Below, in pieces: positions 16,265 through 62,641 of a stretch of 64,000 nt of DNA (the stretch's first letter is position 1; every line of letters begins with the position of its first letter). The DNA is from Paraspadella gotoi. Lineage: Eukaryota; Animalia; Chaetognatha. The DNA lies in NCBI GenBank assembly GCA_051294375.1, contig CM119266.1, positions 19,789,657 through 19,853,656 of the forward strand, in the 5' to 3' direction. Under the pieces are notes generated by a model. That model was not told the origin of the DNA and did no database searches. It saw only the letters and a program-made list of their open reading frames with translations. The position numbers were made by a program, and so were the translations under genes.

Positions 16265-19200
16265 ATGGAAGTAAATAACCAAGTTAAAATCGAATCGGGT
16301 TTGTGTGCCACGCCTATGAATCACGCCGGGGGAGCCTCTTCGACATCTCAGTTGAAGCAGGGAGCAAGCTTACCCTGTATTGTCAAGAAAACGGTACTAC
16401 TCATTAGGTCGTTTTTGTGGACACCGATTTTTGTCGCTAAATGGATTTTCGCTGAAGCTTTGGGTCTGAAGGTCAGTAAAAGGCGTTTAGGTATTAATTT
16501 TATCAATCGGTTTGATATCTAGATAAAATATTTTTGGTTAAGCGAATTGGTACTGATTTTGGAAATACTCATATTTACAAACCGTAACTATTAAATAAAA
16601 TTCTATTCATAAAATTTCAAAAATTCTATTCTTCAGAATCTTTTACATTGCTTCAGAAGTTTGAAAAAATACCACGTTAACTCAGATGGATACATGATTT
16701 ATGAATTGACGTTGAAAGAACAATTCAATCTTTGGATGCGCAAGGGTAACAATTTGTAAAAAAAAGTTTTTTTATGTTTTTCTTACGTTTTTCACGTTTT
16801 AGTACTTCTAATCGTATTACATTAAATTCTTTTTGACGGTAACAATTGATGTTTATCATTATACTACGCTCCTCACTGCCATTAGTAAATCGACTCAACG
16901 ATGCATCCCTATTAGAGTGGGTCAATGAAAAATTAAACATTGACAAGACCGGCGTCAGGGTTATTAACTTTTCAAGTTCCTGGACTGACGGAATCCGGTT
17001 ATGCAGGTGAAACAGAAGTGAGGTTTTTTTTTTCTCGAAAAAATAGAGTATAACTATGTAAAGGGCGATCAATAAAATCTGATACATATACTGATGCCAT
17101 GAGGGAGGGACACTGGGTGGCGAAACCAATTTTTTATTTTTTAAAAAAAGCTGTGAAGGTAGGACAATAAGACATCATAGTAAGGACATATGTCATAGAA
17201 TATAGTTTACTAATCTGCCAAGTATTAACTAAAATAATTCAGTATTTCATGAATTATGCCGTATTGAACGTTTGGTCATGTAATAACTTTTTTAAGCGAT
17301 CACGAAACTGCACAAGTATGATAAATATGCACATTGAATGTCTTACTATATAATATAAATTTAATTAATGCATTATTACTCAGTTAATACTCGCGTTATG
17401 ATCTTTTAAGTATGATATTTGATAAACCAATAGTCAGACATGTAGTCGGGCATTGCCTAGGTTCACTACAGACATACCGTCTGACCAACCGATACCCAAG
17501 TGTCTTATAGAGTTGTTTCGCGAGTACAAGCGGCGCAACTAAAAAAATTTTCTAAACAATGTGCATGTGATGTCTCTTTAACAATTAAATACGTATATTT
17601 GTAGATTGGTAGACGCGATAGCGCCTGGCATCAGTTCTCGTCCGGACCATCTCTCTCCAAGCAACCGACTGTTTAATTGCCGACTCGCCCTGACCATGGC
17701 GAAAAATAATCTCAGAGTGGGTGAGGTTAGTAAAGAAAAGCGCAAGCTGAAATCGTGTCTAGCGAATTTACACATTTACATGTTTTAACAATCCAAGTTT
17801 TCCGAGTTATAATTACTTAATATTCAAACTTCGATCATTTCTTTTTTAGTTGCAACTCTATAAGTCACTTTTCGGTTCGTCTGTCCGTCTGTCTGTCCCA
17901 TTTACGTTAATGCTTTATCAATTAAGTTCATATTTGGTATGAAGGTAGGGCACCGTAAGACCTTTAGCATGCTTATATATCTTAAAAATCGATCACATGA
18001 CCCAAAATATAATGTGCTTATATTGGTTGCTATCGTGTCGAAAATATATGGAAATACACGTAATAAGAAAGTCACTGCGGCGCAACACACATTGGCATCT
18101 CCGTTCTCGTTCCATAGATCATTCGGGCCGAAGACGTGGGCAGGCCCTCCAAGGTTTGTACCATAAAGATGCGTCTGTTGCTCCAAGTGTTACGCCATGT
18201 AGATAAATTACGCAATACGGGCAAAGGTGATGACGACGTTGAGTCAGGCAGCGGCGGCGGCGGCTCTAAGTGAGTAGGTCTTTTATATTAGCATAGTTTT
18301 ATATTATATTGTCTAAATCGCCTTTGTGATTGCAGGAGACTAATGCCAACTACATAGGTTAATTTCTGCATCTTTCCCCGATTCCAGGCTCTTCGCAATT
18401 TCTTTTCGAAAGACGTTGAAAGCGAGTAGCGAAGAGAATCCAGACGCCGGGCAGCAGACGCCAATCCTGCGAAAGGTGCTTGGGTCAGAAGCTTCGAAAT
18501 GCGCTGTCACTGCGCGGGTCGTTGGTCGATCGCAAAGCGGAGATTTAGAAGAGAAAAACTGTAGGTATGGTGGCTCGGTGATCATAATTTTTGCACCTAT
18601 AACTACTTTAAATTCAAGAAAAAAATTAAAATTTAATTTTTAATAATTAGTTATTGTTTTTTTTTCTTTTCGTTGGTTGAATTTATTAGGAGAAAATATT
18701 GATTTTTCGCAACGAATTTTTTTTAAACATTATTACAGACATGTTTCGAATAGTCATTCTATTCATCATCAGTGTAAAAAACGATTTGTGAATCACTAGT
18801 TTTAGGCAATGTTAAAGATGAGTTTGAGGGAGGGAGAGAGAGAGAGAGAGAGAGAGAGAGAGAGAGAGAGAGAGAGAGAGAGAGTTGCGAAAAATCAATC
18901 TTTCCTCCTAATAATTAGTTAATAATTACCCAAAATTATTATTAAAAAACATGTGTATTGAATTTTATATGACTAATATGATTTTAGCATATATATTTTT
19001 AGCGAATCGCCACAATACCTAAATAAATTACAATCAGAGCGACCATTAGCAATACAACCATAAAAACCATAACAACCACAGAACCCAACGCAACCACAAC
19101 AATTACTAAAACACTTAGTGTGGGAGCAAGCCAAACCGTAAACTGACTTAATTTAATTGATAATTGGTAAACAGGTGATGCACCATGAGACGCTTGTGCA

Positions 19201-22200
19201 CACGAGTACCTGGGAAATAAAATAATCCCTCGAAGTGCGAATACATGAACAAATCCTAAATGGTTTTAAATATGGCATATATAGGATCTTTGATTACATT
19301 ATAATTACTGTTCCCACGGATTTCATATGCACTTCCTCTTTCACAGATTAGCGGGTGTTGGACTCATGATCGGTTTAACTGGTAAAGCGTCTCGCTTCAC
19401 TGTCTCCTTTAACTCTTCGACCAAAACTGTCTGTGAACTCGTGGTCGAAATAAAGGGACCGCGCGGCGAACACACCAAGGAGGTCTTTAAAGGTTGGATT
19501 AGAGCCGGAAAAATGGTAAATCTCGAAGAATGATAAGATTTGACTGTGGTGACTAGTTATGTGTTGAATAAATGCTAACCCACATTTGATAGCTGTAAGT
19601 GTAATATCTACAATCTCCGTGCTTTTTGCTCCCCTGTTTTGGTGCCGAGGATGACAACAGTGACATTCAATGATTCATGGAAGCTCATTTAAAAATAATC
19701 AATTAACATTTCTTTTCTATTTTTTAAAAGAAAACGACCTGACGGAGTGCGGCCCTCCCGGGCATCGACTGCGCAGGTCGCCTTCGATCCATGAGGCGCT
19801 CAGCACATCTCTCTCACTTCGTCGTCCATTGTTGCAGCCGCCGCTCGCCATTCCCCTCGACGTTATTGTCCTCAAGGACGATGCGGTTAAAATTGACAGT
19901 TGTGAACTTCATAGCGAAAACTGGACCGCGTCAGCTGGGCATGACTGTACCTGTCAAAAGGGCGCCCTTCTCTTTGCCTTCACTCCACAGACAACTGGAA
20001 GATTCGTCATAGAAGTCCAATGGAATGGGAAAGTCGTTTCTGGATCGCCTTTTAAAGTAAAAATTTGTTTTATGATAGGAAAAATGATAATGATGATATT
20101 TTGTTTTAGATTCCAAACATTTATCTCGTTTTAAAAAAAGGTTGTGATTTTGGATTCTATGGAGGAACTGAAAAGAGAGATGCATGGCAAGATACTCAAG
20201 ATGAAGACTTCTGCACTTTACAACTTCCCGAGGATTTGTGAATACGATGGCAAGTCGAATCAATATGTGGACGGCGCTCTCCAACAAGAAAAGCGATCGG
20301 GGTCTTTCAATCGTCACGCGACTCTCGCCAACATGCACGGGCTTGTCAGGATGTCCCAAACGACCTCGCGCTTGCACACCGTCTCTGTCCGTAGCCGAAA
20401 AATCCTAAAACGCGTCACCACTAAAGCCGGCGGCCACGAAATAGTTCTTGCCGCCAACCAGAACATCAAAATGTACGTCTTATTCTAGATGAAAGTTAAA
20501 CAGAAGTAAAATCAGTGGCTGGTTTTAAATGAACTGCTATTGCAGTCAGGGGCGGCGAGAGTGGGGGTTTCATTCGCCCGGGATGGCCCTGAGAAGAGAG
20601 AAAAAAAAAGAAGAAGAAAAAAAAGAAGAAAAAAGAAGAGGAGGCAGAGGTTTGAGCACTGGAGCAAAAGGTCCTAAAAACTAAAATTATGGAGAGCAGG
20701 GGGGCCCGGCCAGGGGGCCAGTGGGAGGGCCCGCCATTTCTCTCGCCGCCCCTGATTGCAGTTTAAAAATATGAAAAACTTCCAGATTGATGATAAAAAG
20801 TATATATGTGAAAAAATTTACGATCGACCATGTACGATCCACGATCGATCATCCACATTCCACAATCCAAGAATAAAAATTTATAATTAGACTATATATA
20901 ATTTTACAATTATTTTATACATAATAATTATTTTTAACAAATTTAAAAGGAGTTTTGTTGGACTGAAAAAGCTCTTAATTTTTAAGTTACAAATAAACAA
21001 GCATTGTCCTTCCAATGTGTTGCGTCACATGTTGCTTTCCATTGTATTTCTGAGTGACGACGAACAGGGATTGGCAGTGGTGAAAAAATCGATCGCTTCT
21101 ACATCCCTGCCCTAATCACTACCCAAAATTCTAACTAAATCCTTAACCCTTAAACTAATCTTTAAACCTAATCACTGGCCTCATAATACGTACAAACATG
21201 TGAATTGACTGAAAAGTTTTTTAACAGAATGAGTTTGGATGTTCCATTGGAAGTGAATAAAGGAGACTTCCAGAAAGGATGCGATGAGCTGAACCATCCA
21301 ACGAAAGAGGTAATTTTTAAAAGGCGAGTCGGAACTCTTATGTGAATTGATATAATTTGTTTTAATTTTAAAGTTTAAATGTAGCAAAATATCAAAACAC
21401 ATTTACTTGGTCACTGTATCAATGGTTTGAATATTCTTCCAGAAACTAAAATCCCAACAAAACCTTCAATATCCACCATGTCGTCCGAAATTGGCAGAAA
21501 TACATTATAAAACTGTAAGAATCGACTGTTTTATTAGAAAATTTAACAATGAAAAAAGTCTAATTTTGTTCATTAATCTTATCAGACGACGAAACGTTCA
21601 CGATCCATGCCTATTATATTGACTGGATGGACGGCCTTTGACATTGATACAGAAAAAGGTTCGCACCCTTAAGCTTGAATAACAAGTTATAAATTGACAT
21701 TAAAATTTACCAAAACATTTCCACAAATAAAATTCTTTATTGTTAAAATAATATTTAGTCCAGTTTTTCATCTTCAGGATCTGAAAAAATGAGCGTAAAA
21801 GAAATGGAGGAACAATCTATCGAAGCGCAGAGAAATAATGAGAGACACAAGAATATATCGTCGGAATATTTAACGAAATGGGTATTCTATTTTGCGACTT
21901 TTGAATTCTAGACTGGGAGAAAAAAAAGCTTATATTATAAGCTTTTTTTTAAGCTTTTTTATAAGTTATAAATATATAACTATTATGTATTTAATGATAC
22001 ATTTTTTAATTGTTTTTTGTGGTTTTTAAACGATGACTATAATTAATTTTGGGTCATTTTAGGCAAGCACAAATTGAGTTCTAACTTTTTCTTCACTTTC
22101 ATCCCTAAGATCTTTCAAATTCCATAAAATATAATTTATGAATTTTTTTTGTTCTATGCTAAGAGGGAACTAGCCGTTGGTGGTACGAAAATGTCCTACG

Positions 22201-62480: not shown

Positions 62481-62641
62481 TAACAAAGTTTTGATTTAAT
62501 TTGTACAACGATTTTATTTTTGTATCTTAGCAGACATGTTTCGGCTCATAAGGCTCATTAAGGCTCGAATTTATGAGCCGAAACATGTCTGCTAAGATAC
62601 AAAAATAAAATTGTTGTACAAATTAAATCAAAACTTTGTTA
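62481..62641. mobile_element. Near-perfect palindrome from the hammerhead/pLTR-like family
   Basis: 71-bp arms (62481-62551 and 62571-62641, 1 mismatch) with a 19-nt spacer. Contains GGCTC-gaatttat-GAGCC-GAAACATGTC, but the core reads CTCATTA instead of CTGATGA. Confidence 0.8.

What the first reader, a model, noticed from the sequence alone, without database searches (positions are those of the whole stretch)
18684..62641. Dispersed family of minimal hammerhead ribozymes with covarying stems, each inside a locus-specific inverted repeat
Seen: five loci (18733 -, 38862 +, 41428 +, 44190 +, ~62554 +) share CUGA(U/C)GA-N-stem II-GAAAC-AU-(G/A)UH followed by an A-rich tail with an AAA(A/U)UCGUUG-like motif. 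Three have intact cores. Stem II differs in sequence but stays paired (GAAUAG/CUAUUC, GACUC/GAGUC, GGCUC/GAGCC). At each locus part of the 3' side is repeated upstream in inverted orientation; arms within a locus are nearly identical (28/30, 76/78, 70/71) while loci differ strongly from one another. Known: minimal type I hammerheads with a palindromic stem III that can cleave as dimers occur in Penelope-like retroelement pLTRs and retrozymes, and Penelope elements often carry inverted partial LTRs. Inference: this is a non-autonomous, ribozyme-carrying retroelement family whose inverted arm is generated at insertion or homogenised by gene conversion. No RT or GIY-YIG ORF is visible in the window.
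Basis: partly seen in the sequence, partly recalled or inferred. Interest (0 to 1): 0.85.

Follow-up and report, generated by a model that had tools for sequence, protein, structure and literature searches.

The report
Truncated head-to-head Penelope insertions with hammerheads
These short mirror-image inserts, three of them with an intact small hammerhead-ribozyme motif and three with exact 13-base target duplications, are most likely the clipped ends of Penelope-type jumping genes that landed head to head, an ordinary and already described pattern; self-cutting is untested.

Summary
The motifs are real. Three loci (A 18772-, B 38865+, D 44192+) have intact minimal type I hammerhead cores with covarying stem II and the palindrome ACAUGU (3 observed, 0 in 200 shuffles). 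C is decayed, and its inverted arm is no better than chance. E lacks the CUGANGA box. This is the published insertion unit of endonuclease-bearing Penelope-like elements: a 5'-truncated pLTR end, an inverted 5'-truncated copy, a one-sided tail and a TSD. The arms were likely made at insertion; neither gene conversion nor MITE ends are needed. A separate non-autonomous family is not shown: the 5' ends vary, and no parent ORF could be read because no genome is held. At B, E and G the tail lies on the shorter arm, which favours two separately primed cDNAs over fold-back. The scan already noted this pattern in at least 7 other genomes. Ordinary; a twister-like motif in another repeat of the window is a better lead.

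The parts
18641..18653 (.). Locus A target-site duplication, copy 1 (13 bp; copy 2 at 18909-18921)
   Evidence: Exact 13-mer at both ends; listed contigs from 4 of 4 runs stop matching at 18654
18654..18682 (-). Locus A one-sided tail (29 nt; 35 nt if the 6 nt shared with the TSD are counted), on the longer, hammerhead-bearing copy
18683..18713 (-). Locus A forward arm; its inverted partner is 18884-18914 (29/31)
18733..18777 (-). Locus A intact minimal hammerhead: 5-bp stem I, 6-bp stem II, palindromic stem III, predicted cut 3' of C18738; antisense inside an inferred intron of a filamin-like gene
   Evidence: host exon 18388-18564; CH and filamin domains on + strand
18909..18921 (.). Locus A target-site duplication, copy 2
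38355..38367 (.). Locus B target-site duplication, copy 1 (13 bp; copy 2 at 38956-38968)
38368..38402 (-). Locus B tail (35 nt), on the shorter inverted copy
   Evidence: alike to the E tail
38403..38489 (-). Locus B inverted 5'-truncated copy (lacks the CUGAUGA box)
   Evidence: 82/87 to 38869-38955
38490..38861 (+). Locus B pyrimidine-rich upstream part of the forward copy with (CT)n; 38649-38744 is 82% alike to 3065-3162
38862..38955 (+). Locus B forward copy: intact core at 38865, 3-bp stem I, predicted cut 3' of C38901, then the 3' module to the TSD; predicted to be zipped into the long arm hairpin in a read-through RNA
38956..38968 (.). Locus B target-site duplication, copy 2
41428..41466 (+). 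Locus C decayed hammerhead (stem II mismatch, non-palindromic stem III, no stem I next to the core); candidate 13-bp TSD 41387-41399/41485-41497 is near-palindromic and ambiguous
44092..44166 (-). Locus D inverted copy (44116-44166, 48/52) with a tail-like extension; no TSD found (best 8/13)
44190..44283 (+). Locus D forward copy: intact core at 44192, GUA site (A44227), 2-bp stem I; inserted in an older dispersed repeat
62431..62443 (.). Locus E target-site duplication, copy 1 (13 bp; copy 2 at 62640-62652)
62444..62551 (-). Locus E inverted copy: tail 62444-62480 (37 nt) plus arm 62481-62551
62552..62641 (+). Locus E junction duplication and forward copy, starting at stem II; no CUGANGA box
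62640..62652 (.). Locus E target-site duplication, copy 2
8846..8990 (.). Locus G (not in the finding): 125-bp head-to-head insertion with both arms truncated 3' of the hammerhead; tail 8856-8892 on the shorter arm; 10-bp exact duplication 8846-8855/8981-8990
2825..3162 (.). Locus F (not in the finding): decayed B-like remnant (inverted 3' module 2825-2901, spacer-like 3065-3162)
   Evidence: profile E 0.003
6782..6979 (.). Locus H (not in the finding): possible decayed copy; weak
   Evidence: profile E 0.17 and 0.21

Best explanation
These are likely dead insertions of Penelope-like retroelements, each made of two 5'-truncated copies of the element's 3' end joined head to head, with a tail on one copy and, at A, B and E, an exact 13-bp target duplication; the hammerhead is likely a passenger of that end. 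Mechanism (inferred): the RT/GIY-YIG protein of a parent element nicks both strands of AT-rich DNA 13 nt apart. Each nick primes a cDNA on element RNA, one from the distal and one from the proximal start site, so only one arm has the roughly 35-nt tail. Both cDNAs stop early and are joined at their 5'-truncated ends, sometimes with slippage (E). The arms start out identical because they are copied from the same donor at the same time and then drift like LTR pairs. Loci differ because several donor subfamilies were active. In place the ribozymes would mostly be silent: half-copied (E), absent (G), zipped into the arm hairpin (B), decayed (C) or antisense to the host gene (A).
For: Shown: exact 13-bp duplications directly outside the arms at 3 of 5 loci (chance per locus 0.4% in 1000 random zone pairs); a window-wide scan for duplication plus enclosed arms gave 6 hits, and the 3 with 13 bp are A, B and E. 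A tail of 29(35), 35, 37 and 37 nt on one arm only at A, B, E and G, tail-like at D. Inserts of 125-588 bp with shared 3' ends and different 5' ends. 2 of the 3 differences in the B(78 nt) and E arms are CpG transitions, as expected from decay after insertion. Many relatives exist: 47 contigs of run X2 (possibly this DNA's source) and 6-10 of each other run lie on the 443 bases around A, and 5 of the 28 listed records, from all 4 runs, stop matching at the TSD edge 18654. Literature: inverted 5'-truncated copy, 30-40 bp tail often on one end (PMC8557442); inverted pLTR, 31-bp tail, 8-10 bp TSDs (PMC3846280); min-HHR with extra nucleotide at 9/10.1, palindrome, opposite-strand pairs 100-700 bp apart, mostly single and truncated (PMC4209133); purified PLE protein cuts and extends both strands and has two RT start sites bounding the tail (PMC11167929).
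Against: No RT or GIY-YIG was seen: none in the window, no genome held, and L001/L002, which carry the same kind of hammerhead in an inverted repeat, have no frame of 120 aa or more. D has no TSD and C fits poorly. No empty site was observed (one search did not span both TSD copies). B's 372-bp upstream part looks non-coding, which a non-autonomous donor would also give. The two-nick step rests on 3 or 4 loci and an in vitro study of a different element; Arkhipova 2013 favours self-priming on an antisense template, which these loci do not exclude.
Confidence: 0.82

Rival explanations
1. The donors are a separate non-autonomous family (retrozyme- or SINE-like) mobilised in trans by a Penelope protein; the insertion chemistry is the same.
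For: No ORF in any insert; B carries about 370 bp of pyrimidine-rich DNA with (CT)n, shared with F; non-autonomous PLEs exist (PMC8557442; PMC9977147) and animal retrozymes are argued to derive from pLTRs (bioRxiv 10.64898/2026.07.22.740005).
Against: No tandem monomers as in retrozymes; 5' ends differ at every locus; modules only 61-70% alike. Contigs in X5, X6 and X9 continue past the tail with mutually similar letters, and one X9 contig runs about 1200 nt beyond it, as an internal tail of a longer parent predicts; what that sequence encodes was not readable.
Confidence: 0.25
2. The inverted arm arises by fold-back self-priming, on the first cDNA or on an antisense RNA, not by a second primed cDNA.
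For: Proposed for junction palindromes in rotifer Penelopes. E's junction sits in the stem II hairpin, and a loose end in X9 shows another junction at the hammerhead. A (tail on the longer copy) fits.
Against: At B, E and G (and likely D) the tail is on the shorter arm while the longer arm holds the unpaired spacer in sense; a fold-back copy of a tail-less cDNA cannot gain a tail. The antisense-RNA version is not excluded.
Confidence: 0.2
3. The arms are kept alike by gene conversion after insertion.
For: Arms within a locus are 92-99% alike while loci are 61-70% alike.
Against: Both arms lie inside one TSD pair; the locus with the most diverged arms (D, 48/52) is also the one without a TSD; arm differences include CpG decay; the tail stays one-sided.
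Confidence: 0.04
4. A DNA transposon (MITE or foldback) with terminal inverted repeats.
For: Inverted arms flanked by a TSD.
Against: The arms are not terminal on both sides (one carries a tail), differ between loci, vary from 29 to 87 bp, and overlap a ribozyme motif; all copies share 3' ends and lose 5' ends.
Confidence: 0.02

Closest known systems
Insertion units of endonuclease-positive Penelope-like elements (Adineta vaga Pen families, PMC3846280, passages and Discussion read; Craig et al. 2021, PMC8557442 and its preprint, passages read)
   Same: Inverted 5'-truncated copy next to the forward pLTR end, 30-40 bp tail on one end, TSD around the whole unit, AT-rich targets, strong 5' truncation.
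   Different: Here only stumps of 125-588 bp; TSD 13 bp at three loci against 8-10 bp in A. vaga; no ORF seen, so the clade (Penelope/Poseidon, Neptune, Nematis, Hydra) cannot be named. Naiads lack the canonical hammerhead and are unlikely.
Minimal hammerheads (min-HHR) of metazoan PLEs (Cervera and de la Pena 2014, PMC4209133, first 2 of 4 parts read; supplements not seen)
   Same: Type I, extra nucleotide between 9 and 10.1, G10.1-C11.1, palindromic 15.2-16.2, short stem I, high variability in one genome, opposite-strand pairs.
   Different: Stem II 5-6 bp here (7-8 in Schistosoma); stem I only 2-3 bp at B and D; cleavage untested.
Poseidon element of Anolis carolinensis, PAc (PMC11167929, first 2 of 4 parts read)
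   Same: Tail bounded by two ends; AT-rich targets; hammerhead not needed for insertion in vitro, as G suggests here.
   Different: In PAc the ORF starts within the hammerhead and runs through the tail; no such frame was established here.
Animal non-LTR retrozymes (bioRxiv 10.64898/2026.07.22.740005, first 2 of 5 parts read; PMC7229834, search listing only)
   Same: Non-coding, type I hammerhead, PLE-related.
   Different: Retrozymes are head-to-tail tandem monomers with a ribozyme in each unit; these are head-to-head stumps with TSD and tail.

Membership tests
Minimal type I hammerhead of PLEs | Core CUGANGA...GAAA...UH | tested here: met
   3 of 5 loci intact (A, B, D); C has the boxes but is decayed; E fails
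Minimal type I hammerhead of PLEs | Paired stem II with G10.1-C11.1, an unpaired nucleotide after A9, and covariation | tested here: met
   G-C in 6 of 6 rows, 3 of 5 pairs change on both sides, 0/500 shuffles (few, related rows). Control: 16 of 16 viral-contig hits to the same boxes have 0-2 bp
Minimal type I hammerhead of PLEs | Palindromic stem III for dimer formation | tested here: met
   ACAUGU at A, B, D, E; homoduplex -4.6 kcal/mol; not at C
Minimal type I hammerhead of PLEs | Stem I of 4-5 bp | tested here: inconclusive
   5 bp at A, 3 at B, 2 at D
Minimal type I hammerhead of PLEs | Self-cleavage 3' of UH as a dimer or with protein | not testable with these tools
   Needs a bench assay; only contigs, no raw RNA reads, were listed
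EN+ Penelope-like element insertions | Inverted 5'-truncated copy adjacent to the forward copy | tested here: met
   A, B, D, E, G; not significant at C
EN+ Penelope-like element insertions | 30-40 bp tail on one end | tested here: met
   A 29(35), B 35, E 37, G 37 nt; tail-like at D
EN+ Penelope-like element insertions | Target-site duplication | tested here: met
   13 bp exact at A, B, E; 10 bp at G; ambiguous at C; none at D
EN+ Penelope-like element insertions | Parent ORF with telomerase-like RT and GIY-YIG endonuclease | not testable with these tools
   No genome held. None in 280 window frames, as expected for stumps; contig letters beyond 30 nt are not returned
Non-LTR retrozymes | Head-to-tail tandem units, each with a hammerhead | tested here: not met
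   No tandem array at any locus
MITE / DNA transposon | Family-wide terminal inverted repeats at both ends | tested here: not met
   Arms locus-specific, of variable length, one with a tail

The most novel reading that the evidence does not exclude
A short non-coding, CT-rich Penelope-derived family, spread densely through this genome, whose every insertion is built by a dimeric RT-endonuclease that primes two cDNAs at nicks exactly 13 nt apart, one from each end of the tail. The tail sitting on the shorter arm would then be genomic proof that the inverted pLTR comes from two primed cDNAs and not from self-priming, and arm pairs would date insertions as LTR pairs do.
Probability: 0.2. Interest if true: 0.45.

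Novelty: new member of a known kind. Interest (0 to 1): 0.17.

Why it matters
Little as a discovery: the ribozyme type, the inverted copy, the tail and the TSD are all described for Penelope-like elements, and this scan has met them in at least 7 other genomes. The modest value is mechanistic. How PLEs make inverted ends is still open, and young copies with exact TSDs show on which arm the tail falls, which separates two-primer from fold-back models; a dense family like this one (up to 8 loci in 64 kb) would give the counts. One search (terms Penelope, head-to-head, twin priming, pLTR, self-priming, 3 of 5 required) returned only PMC3846280, which is weak evidence that this argument is not in print.

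Tried and rejected
Whole-genome search: no genome held. Rfam: no hammerhead hit to E 1; the mir-5014 and mir-2797 hits at E are matches to the long hairpin, below gathering score, rejected. Pattern scans: metagenomes gave 2 near-identical contigs (L001/L002) of another genome with the same hammerhead kind in an 85% inverted repeat, no frame of 120 aa or more and no clear TSD; viral contigs 16 hits, all without stem II; prokaryote genomes 0. Host lineage: best PKNOX hits are 43-60% identical across many phyla, so only 'an animal'. Sequencing runs: no RNA holder listed on record. One X9 contig fits only 18388-18564 between AG and GT, so X9 looks spliced, but contigs show neither level, strand nor cut ends. 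No reads were laid on locus E, so its empty site stays open; one search did not span both A duplications and showed no joint. Pairing of UCGUUG with the tail's CAACGA appears in the folds of A, B, D and E but is not better than shuffles (z +0.6 to -1.5). Dimer MFE folds give the intermolecular stem III only at B and D, and the full active fold at none. Lunse et al. (PMC5785218) is not held; it is known here only through the review PMC6765202 (passages). No supplementary files were read; the alignments and Figure S2 of PMC4209133 and PMC11167929 may bear on tail placement. Earlier-findings look-ups by place and by sequence were blank.
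Full report
Setting. The window is animal DNA, 36% G+C, rich in microsatellites, with PKNOX, bZIP-Maf, CH/filamin and EF-hand exons. 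The lineage could not be fixed, and no whole genome is held.

The motif. A descriptor for CUGANGA, stem II of at least 5 bp and GAAA...UH finds 4 sites; 3 of them (A 18772-, B 38865+, D 44192+) also have one unpaired nucleotide after A9 and the palindrome ACAUGU. In 200 shuffles the loose form averaged 0.135 and the palindromic form never occurred. Stem II covaries: on six aligned motifs 3 of 5 pairs change on both sides and G10.1-C11.1 is invariant (the rows are few and related, so the shuffle count is no probability). As a control, 16 of 16 viral-contig matches to the same boxes have a stem II of 0-2 bp. Stem I is 5 bp at A but 3 at B and 2 at D. C is decayed. E reads CUCAUUA, which lies in a short duplication at the arm junction and is better read as slippage than as a mutated core. 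These traits are those of the min-HHRs of metazoan Penelope-like elements, for which opposite-strand pairs 100-700 bp apart and great variability within a genome were reported in 2014 (PMC4209133).

The insertions. Arms are real at A (29/31), B (76/78), D (48/52) and E (70/71) but not distinguishable from chance at C. Directly outside them lie exact 13-bp direct repeats at A (18641/18909), B (38355/38956) and E (62431/62640); random zone pairs reach 13 in 0.4% of 1000 trials, and a window-wide scan gave 6 duplication-plus-arm hits, of which these three are the only ones with 13 bp. Between one arm and its duplication lies an extra piece absent from the other arm: 29 nt at A (35 counting 6 nt shared with the TSD), 35 at B, 37 at E, each with CAACGAAA; D has a similar piece but no TSD. 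A profile of these ends found further loci: G (8856-8980), with both arms cut 3' of the hammerhead, a 37-nt tail and a 10-bp exact duplication, and the weaker remnants F and H. Inserts measure 125, 196, 255 and 588 bp, share 3' ends and differ at 5' ends.

Outside evidence. On 443 bases around A, 47 contigs of run X2 (possibly the source of this DNA) and 6, 10 and 6 contigs of X5, X6 and X9 were laid; summed depth in X2 rises from 86.5 in the flank to 3119 on the hammerhead, which shows many relatives but is no copy number. Five of the 28 listed records, from all four runs, stop matching at 18654, the inner edge of the TSD. Loose ends there in X5, X6 and X9 resemble each other, and one X9 contig runs about 1200 nt beyond the tail, so in some copies the tail is internal, as in a parent element; the letters were not available. 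Another X9 contig fits only 18388-18564, bounded by AG and GT, which places A antisense in an intron of a filamin-like gene (inferred). L001/L002 show the same kind of hammerhead in an inverted repeat in another genome.

How it likely works. Craig et al. describe PLE insertions as strongly 5'-truncated, often with an inverted 5'-truncated copy and a 30-40 bp tail at one end. Arkhipova et al. show the same with 8-10 bp TSDs. Frangieh et al. found that a purified PLE protein cuts and extends both strands of AT-rich DNA, starts reverse transcription at two internal sites that bound the tail, does not need the hammerhead for insertion, and that the hammerhead cuts only with protein. Put together (inference): two nicks 13 nt apart each prime a cDNA, one from each start site; both stop early and join head to head. 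This explains near-identical arms within a locus, different loci (61-70% alike, several donors), the one-sided tail and G's lack of a ribozyme. One detail discriminates: at B, E and G, and likely D, the tail is on the shorter arm while the longer arm holds the spacer, which a fold-back copy of a single cDNA cannot give. At A the tail is on the longer copy. Self-priming on an antisense RNA remains possible. In place the ribozymes are predicted to be mostly inactive: folds of the whole inserts bury B's and E's motif in the arm hairpin and leave A's and D's core outside it, and no same-strand tandem partner lies near.

What is not shown. No RT or GIY-YIG domain in 280 of 282 scanned frames; no parent element; no empty site; no cleavage. 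Whether donors were autonomous or not is open (about 3 to 1 for ordinary truncated copies). De novo PLE insertions of median 128 bp from an autonomous and non-autonomous pair are reported in Chlamydomonas (PMC9977147, passages), so length alone does not decide.

Verdict. Observation partly confirmed, interpretation partly supported. New members of a known kind; interest 0.17. Earlier scan notes report the same pattern in at least 7 other genomes; my reading was recorded before them and does not rest on them.

Noticed in passing
13820-14061(-), 33100-33402(+), 38180-38299(+), 7082-7174(-), 49770-50033(-), 24632-25093(+), 35617-36245(+), 55603-55746: A second dispersed repeat (unit about 330 bp, shared 3' end, variable 5' ends, partial tandem at 33012-33402, no TSD found) carries a type-P5 twister-like motif: 25.6-25.8 bits, below the gathering score 37.6. 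Against the Rfam consensus both putative pseudoknots keep pairing through double changes (register recalled, not from a call). P1 is a loop-less palindrome AGGCCU, and a two-copy fold gives intermolecular P1 plus P4. P2 is only about 2 bp and monomer folds are no better than shuffles in 3 of 4 copies. P1 is reported to be dispensable (PMC11662667, passages) and twister variants are known in Perere-3 (PMC8501958, passages); searches showed no palindromic-P1 form in listings or passages. Possibly a dimer-type twister in a retro-repeat; worth its own look.
   Followed up: partly
8846-8990: Locus G: the same head-to-head insertion with tail and duplication but no hammerhead, inside or near host gene sequence.
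   Followed up: yes
39040-39220 and 62260-62430: TTAGGG-like low-complexity tracts flank B and E; E's TSD comes from such a tract. Could be a target preference or an older repeat.
   Followed up: no
4429-4529, 17854-18116, 22553-22645, 43838-44401, 50481-50810, 52439-52565, 55459-55521: A third dispersed repeat family; locus D is inserted into one copy, and the other copies give an approximate empty site.
   Followed up: partly
53921-54324: An unrelated inverted repeat (about 42 bp arms) inside an 11-bp direct repeat; MITE-like.
   Followed up: no
2372-2538 and 35910-36076: Two copies of 167 nt, 96% alike; the second lies inside a copy of the twister-like repeat.
   Followed up: no
L001:1-43 and L001:3304-3578: A second hammerhead of another sequence at the contig start, and a head-to-head pair with both cores, in an unrelated genome.
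   Followed up: partly
3845-6390(+), 11996-12244(-), 16843-20131(+), 31717-32970(+): Host genes: PKNOX/PREP homeobox, bZIP-Maf, CH plus filamin repeat, EF-hand protein. 36000-64000 gave no Pfam hit.
   Followed up: no
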